A stretch of 64,000 nucleotides of DNA from an uncultured Acidimicrobiales bacterium (GTDB lineage Bacteria > Actinomycetota > Acidimicrobiia > Acidimicrobiales > VFJN01): positions 311,642 to 375,641 of the forward strand of contig CAVWYL010000022.1 in assembly GCA_963759225.1 (NCBI GenBank), given 5' to 3'. The notes below the pieces were generated by a model. The model ran no database searches, was not told where the DNA came from, and worked only from the letters and a program-made list of their open reading frames with translations. The position numbers and the translations under genes are program-made. Shown here piece after piece: positions 51,170 through 56,912 of this stretch (its first letter is position 1; every line of letters starts with the position of its first letter).

Positions 51170-51745
51170 ATGATCGTCTGCGGCAAGTGCGGTCACGAGA
51201 ACGAGACGGGCCGGCAATTCTGCGAGGAGTGCGATGCGTTCCTCGAGTGGCACGGCGTCGAGGGTCCGCCCGCGGGTCGCGCCAGGACCCCGAGCCAAGC
51301 GGTTCCGCACCCGACCCGGAGCCCGCCACCCCCGGCCGGACCGACCCCGCGGCCCCACCTCCGACCCCCCACACCGACCGGCGCCCGGCCCCGACCCCCA
51401 GCGAGCCCGCCCGCACCCCACCGCCCCCGTCCGCGAGGGACCCGCACCGCCAGCGCCCATGCGCCCGACCCGGCCCGCCGGGGCCCGCCTCGCACCGCCT
51501 GCGCCCGCGCCAGGCCCGCGCCGGCGCCCGTGCGCCACCCGACCGGCCCGCAGCCGCACCGCCTGCGCCACCCGGCCCGGCCCGGCAGGCCAGCCCGCCC
51601 GCGCCGATCGCCGCAGCCACCCGCGCCACGGCCCGGCAGCGGCCCGCCGCCTGCGCCAGCCCGAGCCCGCAGCGCCCGCGCAGGCGGCCCGCAGGCCCGC
51701 GCGCTGCGCCACCCGACCGCGGCCCGCATCGCCCGCGCCACCTGA
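51170..51745 (+). CDS. Zinc-ribbon protein with long proline-rich tail (occupies the iniB position); 3' boundary and frame uncertain
   Basis: An ATG with AGAGGA upstream opens MIVCGKCGHENETGRQFCEECDAFLEWHG (CxxC...CxxC). Downstream CCG-rich DNA is open in all three frames, so the true tail frame cannot be fixed by eye. Confidence 0.5.
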   Translation: MIVCGKCGHENETGRQFCEECDAFLEWHGVEGPPAGRARTPSQAVPHPTRSPPPPAGPTPRPHLRPPTPTGARPRPPASPPAPHRPRPRGTRTASAHAPDPARRGPPRTACARARPAPAPVRHPTGPQPHRLRHPARPGRPARPRRSPQPPAPRPGSGPPPAPARARSARAGGPQARALRHPTAARIARAT

Positions 51746-51915
51746 CGCGGCCCGCGGCCTGCGTCGCCTGCCCGCCCCACCGTCGGCCCGCCCGGCCGCG
51801 CCCGCCCCGCCGGCGCCCGCGCCACCCGATCCGGCCCGCCCCGAGCCCGGGCGCCTGTTCCGCCTGGGCCGGTCCGTGCGCCGGCCTCGCCGGCGGCCGG
51901 GGCCGGCGCCGCCGC

Positions 51916-53934
51916 GTGGGCTGGCCCGCGGGTGCCCGAGCCGGTTCGCCACGCGCCGGCCGCCAGCCCGCGGTCGGCTCGGCCGGCCGCGCCGCACTCG
52001 CCCTCGCCGCGGGTGCGGCCGGGGACCGGCCGGTCGGCTCCCGCCGAGCCCGCACGGCGCCCGCCGCGGCGCCCGAGGCGCCGCGGGCGCGGACGCCATC
52101 GCCTCCCGCGCTCGAACGGGTCCTGGCCAAGGCCCGTGAGCAGGGGCGTGACGACCTCGTCGAGCGGCTCGAGGAGCTCCGCCGCAGCCTCGGGGAGCAG
52201 GAGCTCACCGTCGTCGTCGCCGGCGAGTACAAGCAGGGCAAGTCGACCCTCGTCAACGCCGTCGTCCAGACCGAGGTCTGCCCCGTCGACGACGACGTCG
52301 TGACCTCCGTGCCCACCATCGTCCACTACGGGCCCCGGGCCGAGGCGCTGGTGCACGTCACGCCCGAGGACGGCGGCCCGCCCGAGCGTGCCGGAGGCAA
52401 CGGGGGCGGGCTCGGGCTGACGGCCGAGGGCGCGCCCATCTCGTTCGAGGACCTCCGCCGCTACGTCCGCGGCGATCCGGTCAACGGGGCCGTCCCTCCC
52501 GGGACGGTCCGGGCCGTCGAGGTGCGTCTCGACCGGCAGATGCTGCGCCGCACGGGCCTCTGCTTCGTCGACAGCCCCGGGGTCGGGGGGCTGGAGTCGG
52601 CCGAGGGCAGCGTCGTGCTCGGCGTGCTCAACCTGGCCGAGGCCATGATCTTCGTGACCGACGCCTCCCAGGAGCTGACCCGGGCCGAGATCAGCTTCCT
52701 GCAGGCGGCCGAGGCGCGCTGCCCGAAGATCGTCTGCGTCCTCACCAAGACCGACCTCCATGCCGAGTGGCGCCGCATCGCGGACCTCGACCGCGGCCAC
52801 CTGGCGACGGCCGGGCTCGACATCCCGCTGGTGCCCGTGTCCTCCTTCCTCCGGATGCGCGCGGCCGCCCGGGTGGACGAGGCCATGAACGACGAGTCCG
52901 GCTACCCGGCGCTCGTCCAGTGGCTCCGCACCCGGGTCGTGGCCGAGGGCGGCGCCGCGCAGGCCGCCCGCGTGGACGAGGAGGTCGCGTTCGTCGCCGG
53001 CGAGCTGGCCAAGGTCGTGCAGGCCAGCGCCGAGGTCGTCGCCCGGCCGGAGCAGGCCGAGGCCGTCGTGGCCCGCCTCGCCGACGAGGCCCGCGTGACC
53101 CGGGCCCTGCAGAGCGGGGGCGCACCCTGGCAGCAGGTCCTGTCCGACGGCATCCAGGACCTGGTGGCCGACGTCGACCACGACCTGCGCATCCGGCTCC
53201 AGGGCGTGGTCCGCTCGGGCGAGGACATCATCTCCCGCAGCGACCCGGCCGAGTCGTGGTCCGAGTTCGAGACGTGGCTGCGCCGCCAGGTCGTGACCGC
53301 GGCCGTCGCCACCTACGACTACCTGGCCGATCGGGCCGCCGAGCTGACCGACCGGGTCGGCCAGCAGTTCCAGCGCGACGCCGACAGCCCCATCGCCTTC
53401 TCGATCAGCGCCCCCGTCGCCGCGCTGGAGAGCATCCACCTCGGCGGCGAGTTCGCCCGGAAGGGGGCACGCACGTCGGCGGTGCTGTCCGCGGCCCGGG
53501 GGTCCTACGGCGGCATGCTCATGTTCGGCATGGCCGGCAGCCTGCTCAGCATCCCCGTGGCGGCGCCGGTCCTGCTCGTCCTCAGCCTCGGGCTGGGACG
53601 CCGGGCGCTCCGGGAGGAGAAGACCCGGCGCCACCAGCAGCACCAGGCCGAGGCCCGCGCCGCCCTGCACCGCTACGCCCAGGAGGTCAGCCTGGTCGTG
53701 AGCAAGGAGTGCAAGGACGCCCTGCGCCACACCCAGCGCCTGCTGCGCGACCAGTTCACCGCCCGGGCCCAGCTGCTGCACGAGACCACGACCACCGCGC
53801 TGGCCAGCGCCCAGGCCGCCCGGGCCCTCGACCCCGGCGAGCGGGCCTCGCACCAGCGCGAGGCCGCCCGCGAGATCGGCGAGCTGGGCCGCCTCGGCAG
53901 CCAGCCCCCGGCGGCTCCGGACGGGACGCGGTGA
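51916..53934 (+). CDS. iniA: Dynamin-like GTPase, IniA type (membrane paddle present); start uncertain
   Basis: In the frame of ORF 51064..53934. P-loop AGEYKQGKSTLVNAV, then VDSPGVGG and LTKTDL. The hydrophobic paddle is GSYGGMLMFGMAGSLLSIPVAAPVLLVLSLGLG. The gene is colinear with my memory of M. tuberculosis IniA. GTG 51916 gives a protein close in length to the Mtb IniA as I recall it, but the ORF could extend upstream and be fused to the zinc-ribbon module. Confidence 0.8.
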   Translation: MGWPAGARAGSPRAGRQPAVGSAGRAALALAAGAAGDRPVGSRRARTAPAAAPEAPRARTPSPPALERVLAKAREQGRDDLVERLEELRRSLGEQELTVVVAGEYKQGKSTLVNAVVQTEVCPVDDDVVTSVPTIVHYGPRAEALVHVTPEDGGPPERAGGNGGGLGLTAEGAPISFEDLRRYVRGDPVNGAVPPGTVRAVEVRLDRQMLRRTGLCFVDSPGVGGLESAEGSVVLGVLNLAEAMIFVTDASQELTRAEISFLQAAEARCPKIVCVLTKTDLHAEWRRIADLDRGHLATAGLDIPLVPVSSFLRMRAAARVDEAMNDESGYPALVQWLRTRVVAEGGAAQAARVDEEVAFVAGELAKVVQASAEVVARPEQAEAVVARLADEARVTRALQSGGAPWQQVLSDGIQDLVADVDHDLRIRLQGVVRSGEDIISRSDPAESWSEFETWLRRQVVTAAVATYDYLADRAAELTDRVGQQFQRDADSPIAFSISAPVAALESIHLGGEFARKGARTSAVLSAARGSYGGMLMFGMAGSLLSIPVAAPVLLVLSLGLGRRALREEKTRRHQQHQAEARAALHRYAQEVSLVVSKECKDALRHTQRLLRDQFTARAQLLHETTTTALASAQAARALDPGERASHQREAAREIGELGRLGSQPPAAPDGTR

Positions 53935-55451: not shown

Positions 55452-55461
55452 GGCAGTCATC

Positions 55462-56912
55462 GTGATCGTGTGCCGCCAGTGCGGGCAGACCGCCCGGGAG
55501 GGCGTGGACTTCTGCGAGTCGTGCGGCGCCTTCCTCGAGTGGGAGGGCGAGAAGGTCGACCCCGCGCCCCGGCCCGGGCCGGGCGCCGGCGACAGCCCGG
55601 CCGCGCCCGCACCGCCCGCGCCCCGCCCGGCGCCGGAGCCGGTGCCGCCGCCGGGACCCGCCCCGGGCCCCCGCCCCGGACCCACGCCGTGGGGCGCCCC
55701 GGCACCGCCGCTCACCCCGGCCGGCGGCCGCCGCACCGGGGGCGACGTCGCCGTCACCTGCCTGGAGTGCGGTGCGTCGAACGCCGGCGACCGGCGCTTC
55801 TGCCAGCGGTGCGGCTCCGCGCTCGACCTCGTGGCCCTCGCCCGGCCGCCCGCCCGCGACGGCATCCCCGACGCGCCCTCGTTCGTGCAGCCCCCGCAGG
55901 CCGGCGGCCTCGGCCGCGCCCCGCGCCCGCCGTGCCCGACCCGCCGAAGCTCAGCCCCCGCGCCCCGGCCGTCCCCGACAGCAAGGGCGTGAAGCCGGCC
56001 GAGCCCGTCGCCCGCCCACCGGCCGTGCGCCCGGCGGCCGCGCCGGCCGAGGTCGAACCGGGCGGCGACCTGTGCGGCCAGTGCGGCACGGCCAACCCGC
56101 CGGGTCGCCGGTTCTGCCGCCGGTGCGGCGGCGACCTGCCCGGTGCCCGCCGCGCCCACGTCGACAAGCCCCTCGCCGCCGCCCCCAAGCCCAGCCTGTG
56201 GCAGCGGATGACCGGCCGGGGCCGCACCGGCACCAGCCCCGAGGATCCCGCGCCCACCCGGACGGCCCGGGCCGCCTACCGCCAGGCGCTCGACGTCCGC
56301 TACCGCTTCTACCGGGTGCTGGCCGTCCTCGGCGGCGTCGGCCTGCTCCTGGGGTCGGTCGGCCTCACCGGCTACAACCCGCTCACCGGAGCCCGCAACC
56401 TGTGGGACCGGTTCTTCCCCCGCTACGAGCGCATCGACGAGCTGCAGGCGGCGGTGTCGCCGGCCGAGGAGGAGGCGTCGAGCTACGCGGCCCGCTTCGC
56501 GGTCGACGGCGACCCGGAGACCGAGTGGGCCTCGGTCTGGACCCGGCCGGACGAGGCGGCCGTCGAGGACTGCCTCGGGGGCGAGAACATCGGCGGGGCG
56601 AGCTCGGCGCTCGTGGTCACGCTGCCCGCCGCGGCCGAGATCACCAAGATCGAGGTGCAGCCGGGGCTGCCCGAGGGTGACGCGGGCCGGGCCGGGCAGC
56701 TCCACCCGACCCGGGTCGAGCTCCAGTACGACGACGGCACGTGCGACCAGTTCGACCTCGAGGAGGAGGCCGGCATCCAGAGCCACCGCCTCGACGGGCC
56801 CGAGACGACGACCGTGCGGGTCATCCTGCTCGACGCCGCGCCGCCCACCGACGCGGCGCTGTCCGAGAACCGGATCGGCATCGGGGAGCTGCGCCTCTAC
56901 GAGGCTCGCTGA
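55462..56912 (+). CDS. Triple zinc-ribbon, single-pass membrane protein with C-terminal beta-sandwich (discoidin/F5-8-C-like) domain; one frame break
   Basis: Three zinc ribbons are present: MIVCRQCGQTAREGVDFCESCGAFLEWEG, then VTCLECGASNAGDRRFCQRCG, then LCGQCGTANPPGRRFCRRCG. The TM helix is VLAVLGGVGLLLGSVGL. The C-terminus carries AARFAVDGDPETEWAS...IGIGELRLYE. The switch between ORFs 55462.. and 55470.. is near 55930. Confidence 0.75.

What the first reader, a model, noticed from the sequence alone, without database searches (positions are those of the whole stretch)
51170..56912. IniA/IniC-type dynamin pair bracketed by two paralogous zinc-ribbon proteins
Seen: the ORFs immediately upstream and downstream of the dynamin pair open with clearly related zinc ribbons, MIVCGKCGHENETGRQFCEECDAFLEWHG and MIVCRQCGQTAREGVDFCESCGAFLEWEG.
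- The upstream ORF continues into a long proline-rich tract.
- The downstream ORF has two further ribbons, a TM helix and a beta-sandwich-like outer domain.
- Gene junctions are tight: a GTGA overlap between iniA and iniC, and a 10-nt gap before the third gene.
Established: mycobacterial iniBAC encodes IniB (low complexity) plus the dynamin-like IniA and IniC, and is induced by cell-wall inhibitors.
Inference: here the low-complexity partner carries a zinc ribbon and a second ribbon protein spans the membrane. This suggests a four-component sensor/adaptor plus fission module, not the canonical three-gene operon.
Basis: partly seen in the sequence, partly recalled or inferred. Interest (0 to 1): 0.7.

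Follow-up and report, generated by a model that had tools for sequence, protein, structure and literature searches.

The report
Zinc-ribbon dynamin operon with CisA-like anchor
Two dynamin-like membrane-remodelling GTPases are encoded next to two cell-wall-facing membrane proteins related to the accessory proteins of bacterial contractile injection systems, and one dynamin carries the same zinc-ribbon tag as one of those proteins, which suggests how the dynamins are brought to particular membrane sites.

Summary
The two related zinc ribbons are real, but the gene model is wrong. The upstream "ribbon ORF" is the N-terminal domain of the IniA-like dynamin. It is in frame in 20 genome loci and in the ~97%-identical relative L001. 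In this window it is cut off by a 1-nt indel near 51312, in an assembly with many indel errors. The downstream gene is one ~485-aa protein broken at a C4 run (55919-55922).

The conserved unit is:
- ZnR-linker-IniA-like dynamin
- IniC-like dynamin
- a three-ribbon, single-pass membrane protein with a CBM32/discoidin-fold ectodomain
- a convergent membrane protein with two cytoplasmic Ig domains, two fn3 domains and a SPOR-like end
- in this clade, a divergent SLT/NlpC-P60 wall hydrolase

Among 80 dynamin loci, 21 of 23 with a ribbon on the dynamin also carry the ribbon-membrane protein. None of 57 without a ribbon do. Two gene orders occur.

The two membrane proteins resemble CisA and Sco4256-58 of Streptomyces contractile injection systems (CIS). 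CisA-position proteins start with the same ribbon. A CIS cluster lies beside the module here but not in most relatives.

Inference: the ribbon is a docking tag that recruits the dynamin pair to a wall-anchored membrane complex. I found no description of this module.

The parts
48932..51025 (-). Divergently transcribed secreted wall hydrolase (SLT_3 lysozyme-like + NlpC/P60 + bacterial TSP3 repeats). It is a conserved neighbour in the Acidimicrobiales clade.
   Evidence: Pfam hits. The start near 51025 comes from alignment to the L002 homologue. It sits in the same position in L001, L002, L007, L094, L095 and L096.
51170..51253 (+). N-terminal zinc ribbon of the IniA-like dynamin (MIVCGKCGHENETGRQFCEECDAFLEW), preceded by a Shine-Dalgarno-like AGAGGAAG.
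   Evidence: Sequence. Weak Pfam DZR/Zn_Ribbon_1 hits. It is fused in frame to the dynamin in L001, L002 and 20 genome loci.
51254..52083 (+). Pro-rich, hypervariable linker between ribbon and dynamin. At least one frameshift lies near 51312, where the window lacks 1 nt relative to L001.
   Evidence: Alignment to L001. The GC3 frame plot switches frame at about 51280. In L002 the linker is a clean PPGxKPAGPP repeat.
52084..53934 (+). IniA-like dynamin core. P-loop at 52222-52248, DxxG at 52570-52590, TKTD at 52744-52755, hydrophobic membrane paddle at 53509-53598.
   Evidence: PDB 6J72 IniA, E 6e-84, full length. Dynamin_N. Motif coordinates.
53931..55451 (+). Second dynamin-like GTPase (IniC-type by position and size, 506 aa). 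P-loop at 54084-54110. Its start overlaps the dyn1 stop (GTGA).
   Evidence: Dynamin_N and MMR_HSR1. Overlap shown. It follows dyn1 in 78 of the 80 genome loci; one contig ends before it and in L079 it lies elsewhere on the opposite strand.
55462..56912 (+). CisA-like membrane protein ('g3', about 485 aa once a 1-nt shift at the C4 run 55919-55922 is repaired). Ribbon 1 at 55471-55542, ribbon 2 at 55759-55815, ribbon 3 at 56073-56129, TM at 56307-56375, discoidin/CBM32-fold ectodomain at 56397-56909.
   Evidence: Full-length intact homologues of 497-509 aa match at 56-59% identity over 100% of the query. Frames. AF2 model and Foldseek. Motif coordinates.
56919..58643 (-). Convergent partner ('fn3 protein'; the likely start is 58637). 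It has two cytoplasmic PapD/Cep192_D3-like Ig domains, a TM helix (57870-57923), two fn3 domains and a C-terminal alpha/beta, SPOR-like domain.
   Evidence: AF2 model, pLDDT 88.8. In Pfam, 35 of 38 homologues hit Cep192_D3, 33 hit fn3 and 11 hit SPOR. It is adjacent to g3 in every locus that has g3 and enough flank.
58830..62013 (+). eCIS_core + Het-C protein (1058 aa in L001), broken into 5 frame segments in this window. It marks the edge of the neighbouring contractile injection system region. It is context, not a core part of the module.
62020..63999 (-). Acetyltransferase (62020-62634), PETase-like hydrolase (62772-63737) and the start of a PAAR gene (63871-63999, cut by the window end). 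In L001, Tail_P2_I and baseplate genes follow.

Best explanation
The region encodes one conserved actinobacterial module.

Components:
1. An IniA-like dynamin whose N-terminus is a CisA-type zinc ribbon on a long Pro-rich tether.
2. An IniC-like dynamin, translationally coupled to the first.
3. A CisA-family single-pass membrane protein. It has the same ribbon at its N-terminus, one or two more ribbons, a TM helix and an outward-facing CBM32/discoidin-fold, glycan-binding-type domain.
4. A convergently encoded single-pass protein. It has two cytoplasmic PapD-like Ig domains, and two fn3 domains plus a SPOR-like domain outside.
5. In this clade, a divergent SLT/NlpC-P60 wall hydrolase.

Shown: the gene structures, the fusion, the conserved linkage, and the homology of the partners to CIS accessory families.

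Inferred: the shared [FY]LxW ribbon is a docking tag. Through it, the flexible N-terminus of the dynamin and the CisA-like protein attach to a common cytoplasmic receptor. The most economical candidate is the Ig tandem of protein 4. Ribbon-ribbon pairing is the alternative. The two ectodomains would fix the complex at particular wall sites, such as septa or damaged or denuded glycan. The IniA/IniC-like pair would then carry out GTP-dependent membrane fission or repair there.

The split ORFs in this window are most likely indel errors of the assembly.
For: Gene structure:
- dyn1 is a single ORF starting MI[IV]CGKCGHEN in L001 (872 aa) and L002 (785 aa).
- The ribbon is in frame with the dynamin in 20 of 80 genome loci and present out of frame in 3 more.
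- About 45 of the 120 best dynamin homologues carry an N-terminal ribbon.
- The window differs from L001 by a 1-nt gap at about 51312, and the GC3 signal changes frame there.
- The window has at least 8 frame breaks in about 15 kb. Apart from the one in g3, none of them is present in L001.
- Codon differences between window and L001 are mostly synonymous in dyn1 (18 syn: 7 non), dyn2 (14:1) and the ribbon segment (5:1).
- g3 has intact homologues of 497-509 aa covering 100% of the repaired query.

Linkage:
- 21 of 23 ribbon-bearing dynamin loci have g3, and those with enough flank also have the fn3 protein. None of 57 ribbon-less loci has g3. Fisher p = 2.5e-17, not corrected for phylogeny.
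- Two gene orders occur: SLT< dyn1> dyn2> g3> <fn3, and fn3> <g3 dyn1> dyn2>. In the second, the two ribbon starts lie 105-171 bp apart in 17 of 20 loci.

Identity of the parts:
- IniA homology.
- g3 ectodomain fold.
- fn3 protein model and Pfam census.

CIS link:
- Distant g3 homologues P0095 and P0064 are the gene directly after Tail_P2_I in CIS clusters.
- Streptomyces plasmid CIS clusters have, at that position, proteins with the same layout: N-terminal ribbon, linker, second ribbon, TM, and a C-terminal domain ending ..EVEFF. The g3 N-terminal ribbon is 59% identical to the S. cadmiisoli one.
- The fn3-protein N-terminus is 34% identical over 178 aa (E 1e-25) to a protein inside the S. 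clavuligerus CIS cluster.
- Published descriptions of CisA/Sco4242 and Sco4256-58 match these architectures (PMC12237407, PMC10020575, PMC10066040).
- A ribbon profile finds 774 clusters at E <= 1e-10. Of the best 147, 70 have an N-terminal ribbon with the [FY]LxW tail plus a second ribbon; most of them are of CisA-like size and end in an ..E[VI]EF-type C-terminus, and a simple scan finds a TM helix in about 40.
Against: - No interaction was tested. Structure prediction takes one chain and reports no contacts, so ribbon-Ig, ribbon-ribbon and ribbon-dynamin docking could not be compared.
- Ribbon identity between dyn1 and g3 is the same within a locus (0.46) as between loci (0.46), so there is no co-evolution signal.
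- Two loci (L014, L017) have a ribbon at dyn1 but no g3 within 7 kb.
- The g3 frameshift is shared by the window and L001, and another relative (L096) also has a split g3. It could be real decay rather than a systematic homopolymer error. Codon counts for g3 are too small to decide (3:2 and 5:4).
- The window's own fn3 protein does not hit Pfam SPOR, even at E <= 10.
- The 80 loci are the closest relatives of this dynamin, not a random sample.
- The frame inside the Pro-rich linker cannot be fixed from this sequence, because all three frames are open and GC-rich.
Confidence: 0.6

Rival explanations
1. The module is an accessory arm of the neighbouring contractile injection system. On this view g3 is that system's CisA (membrane adaptor) and the fn3 protein is a Sco4256-58-type CIS-associated protein. 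The dynamin pair would act in or against CIS firing, for example by membrane repair, vesiculation or immunity during CIS-mediated cell death.
For: - In the window, L001-L003 and L095, a CIS region (Het-C/eCIS_core, PAAR, Tail_P2_I, baseplate J, gp25, VgrG) begins 2-5 kb beyond the fn3 gene.
- In L001 and L095, where the record is readable that far, the gene after Tail_P2_I is PAAR, so the usual CisA slot holds no CisA-like gene.
- g3 and the fn3 protein belong to families otherwise found in CIS clusters.
- In L051 a PAAR-like gene follows dyn2.
Against: - The same five-gene block occurs with no CIS gene within 8-10 kb in L007, L094 and L096.
- About 18 divergent-order loci have no CIS gene within 7 kb.
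- The ribbon co-occurrence holds regardless of CIS adjacency.
Confidence: 0.2
2. A separate small ribbon plus low-complexity protein (an IniB-like partner), IniA, IniC and a ribbon membrane protein form a four-gene operon.
For: As assembled, the window has a 203-aa ORF (51134-51745) that holds the ribbon and ends in a stop. The dynamin core is in another frame.
Against: - Relatives have one ORF from the ribbon to the dynamin stop.
- The frame change coincides with a 1-nt gap against a ~97% identical relative.
- The window is full of frame breaks in otherwise intact genes.
- The public gene call for this contig (P0105, 672 aa, 100% identical) simply starts at an internal codon.
Confidence: 0.04
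3. The operon is decaying here. The frameshifts are real, so this organism makes a ribbon-less dynamin and a truncated membrane protein.
For: The g3 frameshift is identical in the window and in L001, which differ at 2-3% of sites. L096 also has a split g3.
Against: - All three come from the same set of assemblies (ENA ERZ250395xx, records named contig_N). That naming suggests long-read assemblies to me, and those undercall homopolymers. This is my inference, not a stated fact.
- The break is at a C4 run where C5 restores the frame seen in P0002.
- The dynamin-linker break is not shared with L001.
- Synonymous changes dominate in dyn1, dyn2 and the fn3 gene.
Confidence: 0.1
4. The ribbons are generic zinc ribbons with no specific shared role, and their presence on both flanks is coincidence.
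For: Short CxxC...CxxC ribbons are very common. The profile hits more than 10,000 clusters. The Pfam hits of the first ribbon fall below the curated cut-offs.
Against: - Spacing is identical and the [FY]LxW tail is conserved in both proteins across 26 loci. Ribbons 2 and 3 of g3 lack the tail.
- Co-occurrence is strict, 21 of 23 against 0 of 57.
- These are the only two matches in the window.
Confidence: 0.03

Closest known systems
Mycobacterial iniBAC (IniA/IniC dynamin-like pair; IniA structure PDB 6J72/6J73, PMC6715688)
   Same: - dyn1 aligns over its full length with M. smegmatis IniA (E 6e-84), including the GTPase motifs and the hydrophobic lipid-interacting region.
- A second, shorter dynamin-like GTPase follows with overlapping stop and start codons, as in iniA-iniC.
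   Different: - There is no IniB-type gene.
- IniA is stated to lack an N-terminal extension (PMC6715688). This protein instead has a zinc ribbon and a Pro-rich tether of about 170 aa (L002) to about 280 aa (L001 and this window).
- The operon continues into a ribbon membrane protein and is paired with an Ig-TM-fn3 protein.
- Direct sequence homology of dyn2 to M. tuberculosis IniC was not tested.
CisA (SCO4242), membrane adaptor of the Streptomyces coelicolor contractile injection system (PMC12237407; PMC10020575)
   Same: - The architecture matches: a cytoplasmic, largely disordered N-region, a Cys-rich Zn-binding element before a single TM helix, and an extracytoplasmic carbohydrate-binding-type C-terminal domain.
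- CisA-position proteins in Streptomyces, Longispora and Chloroflexi CIS clusters start with the same MI[IV]CxxCG...FCxxCGx[FY]LxW ribbon.
- HMMER links g3 to the Chloroflexi one over 62% of its length (E 3e-7).
   Different: - g3 is not encoded directly after the baseplate genes. It is the third gene of a dynamin operon, or lies divergent to it.
- It usually has no CIS within 7-10 kb.
- In this clade it has three ribbons rather than two.
- S. coelicolor CisA itself was not available for comparison.
Sco4256-Sco4258, CIS-associated single-pass proteins of Streptomyces (PMC10066040; PMC10020575)
   Same: - The layout matches the published one: a shared N-terminal domain described as pilus-chaperone (PapD)-like, one TM helix, and a variable C-terminal domain, often carbohydrate-binding.
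- The window protein's N-terminal Ig tandem is 34% identical (E 1e-25) to a protein at the equivalent position of the S. clavuligerus CIS cluster.
   Different: - Here the outer part is two fn3 domains plus a SPOR-like domain, rather than ricin or toxin-like.
- The gene travels with the dynamin pair and g3 instead of lying inside a CIS cluster.
- Equivalence to Sco4256 itself rests on position and published description, not on a direct alignment.
Streptomyces DynA/DynB (bioRxiv 10.1101/2025.06.23.661029)
   Same: It is a tandem actinobacterial dynamin-like pair, one of them membrane-bound, whose site of action is set by partner proteins (SsgB, SepX) at division sites. That is a precedent for partner-directed recruitment of a dynamin pair.
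   Different: - The text I searched mentions no zinc ribbon and no CisA-like or Ig-TM partners for DynAB.
- Orthology of this pair with DynAB was not tested.
Bacillus subtilis DynA (PMC8844932; PMC12998192)
   Same: It is a bacterial dynamin that clusters at damaged membrane and protects against pore-forming agents and phage. That is the kind of repair role the module could have.
   Different: DynA is a single two-headed fusion protein with no ribbon and no dedicated membrane-protein partners.

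Membership tests
IniA-type bacterial dynamin-like protein | Full-length sequence homology to IniA (GTPase, neck and trunk) | tested here: met
   phmmer against PDB: 6J72_A, E 6.1e-84, query 15-597 against chain 13-581.
IniA-type bacterial dynamin-like protein | GTPase motifs (P-loop GxxxxGKS/T, DxxG, T/NKxD) | tested here: met
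   GEYKQGKST at 52222-52248, DSPGVGG at 52570-52590 and TKTD at 52744-52755. Pfam Dynamin_N, E 1.2e-17.
IniA-type bacterial dynamin-like protein | Lipid-interacting or hydrophobic region at the tip of the trunk | tested here: met
   GGMLMFGMAGSLLSIPVAAPVLLVLSLGLGRR (53509-53598) aligns with the IniA segment that contains the published LI loop (PMC6715688).
IniA-type bacterial dynamin-like protein | No N-terminal extension (as stated for IniA) | tested here: not met
   Relatives have a ribbon and Pro-rich tether in frame before the GTPase. This makes it a variant architecture.
iniBAC operon | An iniB (Gly-rich, low-complexity) gene upstream of iniA | tested here: not met
   The upstream low-complexity sequence is Pro-rich and belongs to the dynamin ORF in relatives. 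The next gene upstream is a divergent SLT/NlpC-P60 hydrolase.
iniBAC operon | A second dynamin-like gene (iniC) immediately downstream | tested here: met
   506 aa, Dynamin_N, GTGA overlap. It follows dyn1 in 78 of the 80 genome loci. Homology to M. tuberculosis IniC itself was not tested, because no reference sequence was at hand.
iniBAC operon | Induction by cell-wall inhibitors | not testable with these tools
   This needs expression data from a carrier organism.
CisA (SCO4242) family | Single-pass topology: N-terminus in, one TM helix, C-terminal domain out | tested here: met
   This is a prediction only. There is one hydrophobic helix (56307-56375) preceded by an Arg-rich stretch, Zn ribbons on the N-side, and a helix at residues 24-59 of the model followed by the beta-sandwich.
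CisA (SCO4242) family | Cys-rich Zn-binding element shortly before the TM helix | tested here: met
   Ribbon 3, CGQCGTANPPGRRFCRRCG (56073-56129), lies about 60 aa before the TM helix. It is 52% identical to the pre-TM ribbon of the S. cadmiisoli CisA-position protein. The feature is described in PMC10020575.
CisA (SCO4242) family | Carbohydrate-binding-type C-terminal domain | tested here: met
   AF2 model, pLDDT 88.5. Best Foldseek PDB matches are CBM32 and F5/8 type C, E about 6e-8. Pfam CBM_AftD and NCBIfam NADase_discoid hits fall below the cut-offs.
CisA (SCO4242) family | Sequence homology to proteins at the CisA position of CIS clusters | tested here: met
   P0064 (after Tail_P2_I, Chloroflexi): E 3.1e-7, 26% identity over 62% of the query. 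P0095 (Longispora): E 4.7e-5. N-terminal ribbon 59% identical to the S. cadmiisoli one. S. coelicolor CisA itself was not compared.
CisA (SCO4242) family | Encoded directly downstream of baseplate wedge genes of a type IId CIS | tested here: not met
   g3 follows dyn2. In L001, a PAAR gene follows Tail_P2_I. Most related loci have no CIS genes within 7-10 kb.
CisA (SCO4242) family | Required for CIS contraction and firing | not testable with these tools
   This needs genetics and cryo-ET.
Sco4256-58-type CIS-associated proteins | Shared PapD-like N-terminal domain, a single TM helix and a variable C-terminal domain | tested here: met
   AF2 model shows two Ig domains (residues 1-201) and a TM helix at 241-260. 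35 of 38 homologues hit Cep192_D3. 34% identity over 178 aa, E 1e-25, to the S. clavuligerus CIS-cluster protein.
Sco4256-58-type CIS-associated proteins | Encoded inside a CIS cluster | tested here: not met
   It is convergent with g3 beside the dynamin operon. CIS adjacency varies between loci.
SPOR domain (C-terminus of the fn3 protein) | Match to Pfam PF05036 with the beta-alpha-beta-beta-alpha-beta fold | tested here: inconclusive
   11 of 38 homologues hit SPOR (best E 2.4e-6). The window protein has no hit at E <= 10. Its model shows strand-helix-strand-strand-helix-strand over residues 475-558. A fold search of that domain alone was not possible.
Streptomyces DynA/DynB | Orthology to DynA and DynB | not tested

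The most novel reading that the evidence does not exclude
The [FY]LxW zinc ribbon is a portable docking tag shared by CisA, the membrane adaptor of cytoplasmic contractile injection systems, and by an IniA-like dynamin. Both would plug into the same membrane receptor, a PapD-like Ig-TM protein of the Sco4256-58 family. If so, a membrane fission or repair machine and a cell-killing injection machine are recruited to the envelope by one common adaptor system. The proteins now called CIS 'effectors' (Sco4256-58) would then be, at least in part, membrane docking partners rather than cargo.
Probability: 0.25. Interest if true: 0.8.

Novelty: new variant of a known kind. Interest (0 to 1): 0.62.

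Why it matters
How bacterial dynamin-like pairs are targeted to particular membrane sites is largely unknown. For IniA/IniC no recruiting partner has been described. This module offers a concrete, testable answer for a widespread group of Actinomycetota: a tethered zinc-ribbon tag on the dynamin, plus two wall-binding membrane proteins.

It also bears on the CisA and Sco4256-58 families, so far discussed only as parts of the Streptomyces contractile injection system. They turn out to have relatives that operate with a quite different cytoplasmic machine. That bears directly on the open question of what CisA's cytoplasmic region binds and what Sco4256-58 really do.

The module occurs in cultured strains such as Pseudonocardia charpentierae DSM 45834 and Blastococcus sp. 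CT_GayMR19, so experiments are feasible.

Tried and rejected
- NCBIfam has no specific model for any of the module proteins. It gave only generic GTPase hits and a sub-threshold NADase_discoid hit.
- Foldseek of the whole fn3-protein model returned only generic tandem Ig/fn3 chains, so it could not identify the C-terminal domain.
- I looked for ribbon co-evolution by comparing dyn1 and g3 ribbon identity within and between loci. Both are 0.46, so there is no signal.
- The ribbon-profile search of 1.84 billion representatives is dominated at the top by multi-ribbon proteins. It carries no annotation or context, so it shows family size but not how often each context occurs.
- Literature searches combining IniA or bacterial dynamin-like with zinc ribbon, and contractile injection system with dynamin, found nothing relevant. 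The DynAB preprint mentions no zinc and no transmembrane partners of this kind.
- The GC3 frame plot cannot fix the frame within the Pro-rich linker, because all three codon positions are 80-95% GC.
- A tblastn of the ribbon-dynamin against the plasmid collection found only ribbon-less dynamin matches.
- The exceptions L014 and L017 (ribbon at dyn1, no g3 within 7 kb) remain unexplained.
- A programmed frameshift was considered and set aside. The breaks lie at different kinds of sites, are not conserved in L002 or in the in-frame genome loci, and sit among many other frame breaks in the same window.

Full report
WHAT IS IN THE SEQUENCE

The window is about 75% G+C, so long spurious ORFs occur in all frames. 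Two zinc ribbons with the same spacing and the same tail are present. CGKCGHENETGRQFCEECDAFLEW lies at 51179-51250 and CRQCGQTAREGVDFCESCGAFLEW at 55471-55542. Each comes three residues after a start codon: ATG 51170, preceded by AGAGGAAG, and GTG 55462. They are the only six-frame matches in the whole window to a ribbon-plus-[FY]LxW pattern.

Between them lie two dynamin-family genes. The first (core 52084-53934) aligns over its whole length with Mycolicibacterium smegmatis IniA (PDB 6J72, E 6e-84), including the hydrophobic lipid-interacting region. The second (53931-55451, 506 aa) has Dynamin_N, and its start overlaps the first gene's stop in GTGA.

In the window the upstream ribbon is in one frame and the dynamin core in another. 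Relatives show that these are one gene.
- L001 is 96-98% identical at DNA level. Its gene is a single 872-aa ORF that starts MIVCGKCGHE and runs into the dynamin.
- L002 is a more distant relative from a JGI metagenome. Its gene is a clean 785-aa ORF: ribbon, then about 170 aa of PPGxKPAGPP-type repeats, then the dynamin.
- Among the 120 best homologues of the dynamin, about 45 start with such a ribbon.
- Among 80 genome loci, 20 have the ribbon in frame with the dynamin and 3 have it just upstream out of frame.

The window lacks one base near 51312 relative to L001, and the third-position GC signal changes frame at that point.

The window as a whole carries many frame breaks in genes that are intact elsewhere. 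The GH1 gene is split over three frames and the eCIS_core/Het-C gene into five pieces, whereas both lie in one frame in L001. The contig names (contig_N, ENA ERZ250395xx) suggest long-read assemblies. That is my inference.

The downstream gene is also split. Ribbons 1 and 2 are in one frame (55462-55992). Ribbon 3, the TM helix and the outer domain are in another (to 56912). The break falls at a C4 run (55919-55922), where a fifth C restores the sequence seen in the homologue P0002. Intact homologues of 497-509 aa cover 100% of the repaired protein at 56-59% identity. L001 shares this break, so a real mutation cannot be excluded. Codon counts there are too few to decide.

THE CONSERVED MODULE

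The neighbourhood is conserved far beyond this lineage.

In the Acidimicrobiales clade the order is: SLT_3/NlpC-P60/TSP3 hydrolase (minus strand), ribbon-dynamin, second dynamin, ribbon membrane protein 'g3' (all plus strand), then a convergent 'fn3 protein' (minus strand). This order is seen in the window and in L001, L002, L007, L094, L095 and L096.

In other Actinomycetota the order is fn3 protein (plus), g3 (minus), then ribbon-dynamin and second dynamin (plus). Examples are Nakamurella, Kribbellaceae, Pseudonocardia charpentierae, Blastococcus, Microlunatus, Ornithinicoccus and several MAGs. The two ribbon starts lie only 105-171 bp apart in 17 of these 20 loci, which implies a shared divergent control region.

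Of 23 loci with a ribbon at the dynamin, 21 have g3, and where the flank allows they also have the fn3 protein. Of 57 loci whose dynamin lacks the ribbon (Micromonosporaceae, Amycolatopsis and others), none has either one, apart from a single weak fn3-like hit in L070. Fisher p = 2.5e-17, not corrected for phylogeny.

The pairing is between a ribbon on the dynamin and a ribbon membrane protein.

WHAT THE PARTNERS ARE

The g3 ectodomain model (pLDDT 88.5) is a galactose-binding-like beta-sandwich. Its best PDB matches are CBM32 and F5/8 type C modules.

The fn3-protein model (pLDDT 88.8) shows these parts in order:
- two N-terminal Ig-like domains with no signal peptide
- a TM helix
- two fn3 domains
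- a small strand-helix-strand-strand-helix-strand domain

In Pfam, 35 of 38 homologues hit Cep192_D3 (a PapD-like Ig), 33 hit fn3 and 11 hit SPOR. The window's own C-terminus does not reach SPOR.

More distant g3 homologues turned out to be the gene directly after Tail_P2_I in contractile injection system clusters of Longispora and a Chloroflexi MAG. In three Streptomyces plasmid CIS clusters, the protein at that position has the same layout: N-terminal ribbon with [FY]LxW, a long Pro/Gly-rich linker, a second ribbon, a TM helix, and a C-terminal domain ending ..EVEFF.

That position is where S. coelicolor CisA (SCO4242) is encoded. CisA is a bitopic protein required for CIS firing. It is described as having a disordered cytoplasmic region, a Cys-rich putative Zn-binding element before the TM helix, and a carbohydrate-binding-type outer domain (PMC12237407, PMC10020575, PMC10066040).

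The N-terminal Ig tandem of the fn3 protein is 34% identical (E 1e-25) to a protein inside the S. clavuligerus CIS cluster. That protein lies between the regulator and the AAA+ ATPase. Its position and layout match the published description of Sco4256-58: a shared PapD-like N-domain, one TM helix and a variable outer domain.

A profile of the ribbon finds 774 clusters at E <= 1e-10 among 1.84 billion representatives. Of the best 147, 70 start with the tailed ribbon and carry a second ribbon, and most of those look CisA-like in size and C-terminal ending. The ribbon is therefore the N-terminal signature of a large CisA-like family. No separate Pfam or NCBIfam model for it turned up in my scans.

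RELATION TO THE NEIGHBOURING INJECTION SYSTEM

In this window the fn3 gene is followed by an eCIS_core/Het-C gene, an acetyltransferase, a hydrolase and a PAAR gene that the window end cuts. In L001, Tail_P2_I and baseplate genes follow. L095 is similar.

But L007, L094 and L096 have the same five-gene block with no CIS gene within 8-10 kb, and about 18 divergent-order loci have none within 7 kb. I therefore treat the module as self-standing and the adjacency as lineage-specific. A functional tie to a CIS elsewhere in those genomes could not be tested.

HOW IT MOST LIKELY WORKS

Shown:
- a dynamin with conserved GTPase motifs and a membrane paddle
- a second dynamin translationally coupled to it
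- a tethered ribbon on the first dynamin
- two single-pass proteins whose larger folded parts face outward and look like glycan- or wall-binding modules
- strict genetic coupling among these

Inferred: the ribbon is a docking tag. It appears on the dynamin only when g3 and the Ig-TM protein are present. The same kind of ribbon protein and the same kind of Ig-TM protein also occur together in CIS clusters. The simplest receptor is therefore the cytoplasmic Ig tandem. Ribbon-ribbon pairing between the dynamin and an oligomeric g3 is the alternative. The wall-binding ectodomains, and perhaps the co-located SLT/NlpC-P60 hydrolase, would define where the complex sits. The IniA/IniC-like pair would remodel or reseal membrane there.

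Partner-directed recruitment of an actinobacterial dynamin pair has precedent in Streptomyces DynAB with SsgB and SepX (bioRxiv 10.1101/2025.06.23.661029). No interaction was tested here, and ribbon identities give no co-evolution signal.

NOVELTY AND VERDICT

The dynamin pair is a known kind. I found no description of any of the following in searches combining IniA or bacterial dynamins with zinc ribbon, or CIS with dynamin:
- the ribbon-tethered IniA-like architecture
- its obligate pairing with CisA-like and Sco4256-58-like membrane proteins
- the fact that CisA-family proteins share that ribbon

I rate it a new variant of a known kind, of moderate to high interest.

Noticed in passing
window 58830-62013 (+): A large eCIS_core (DUF4157-type) + Het-C protein, 1058 aa in L001, is broken into five frame segments here. 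It is a candidate toxin or effector at the edge of the contractile injection system region.
   Followed up: partly
window 62020-63999 (-); L001 14077-16981: The end of a contractile injection system cluster: acetyltransferase, PETase-like hydrolase, and PAAR (cut by the window end). In L001, Tail_P2_I and baseplate J follow. PAAR, not a CisA-like gene, follows Tail_P2_I in this lineage.
   Followed up: partly
window 46282-48910 (-): A LacI-type regulator and a GH1 beta-glucosidase are both disrupted by frameshifts, with GH1 split over three frames. In L001 the part of GH1 held in the locus reads in one frame; in L002 GH1 is called intact and the LacI gene, cut by the locus end, is called as 338 aa. 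This indicates indel errors throughout the window.
   Followed up: yes
window 51254-52083 vs L001 3470-4150: The Pro-rich linker of the dynamin is hypervariable between two ~97% identical genomes. The 4-kb block that contains it shows 55 gap openings, most of them in the linker. This suggests repeat expansion and contraction on top of sequencing error.
   Followed up: partly
window 22131-25848 (-): ORFs here look like a conservon-type set: a small GTPase with a GVGKTT P-loop, a Roadblock/LC7-like protein and a large sensor kinase-like protein. A similar set (Robl_LC7, DUF742, ATP_bind_1, HATPase_c) sits next to the hydrolase gene in L096. I did not check this with Pfam in the window.
   Followed up: no
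L091 22763-25111 (-) (S. cadmiisoli plasmid NZ_CP030074, 188762-191110): The CisA-position gene appears under-annotated. One open 782-aa frame runs from an N-terminal ribbon through about 450 aa of PPG-type repeats to the TM helix and outer domain. The gene table I was shown (PLSDB's, which is incomplete) lists only a 266-aa 'zinc ribbon domain-containing protein' and a 116-aa hypothetical protein.
   Followed up: partly
L091 4858-8067: In S. cadmiisoli, a Sco4256-like Ig-TM protein is flanked by a divergent lytic murein transglycosylase and followed by a PAAR protein, about 17 kb from the CIS baseplate genes. This echoes the hydrolase, Ig-TM and PAAR neighbourhood of the window.
   Followed up: no
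L051 9695-9817: A PAAR-like coding stretch (71% identical to the L001 PAAR over 41 aa) directly follows the second dynamin at the contig end. This locus has the divergent gene order.
   Followed up: no
L007 9624-14057 (-): The fn3-protein homologue is called as a 1477-aa product that also carries PPDK_N and PEP-utilizer domains. It may be a real fusion or a run-through caused by an assembly error.
   Followed up: no
L090 3671-8182: There is a third context for the ribbon-TM-discoidin family. A Cep192_D3-like 422-aa protein and a PD40/Tricorn-like 681-aa protein precede a ribbon-TM-NADase_transloc/F5_F8 protein, with a small eCIS_core protein nearby. No dynamin or CIS structural genes occur within 7 kb.
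   Followed up: no
L014 and L017, about 6640-6730: Two loci have a ribbon at the dynamin N-terminus (out of frame in L014) but no g3 or fn3 gene within 7 kb. These are exceptions to the co-occurrence rule.
   Followed up: partly
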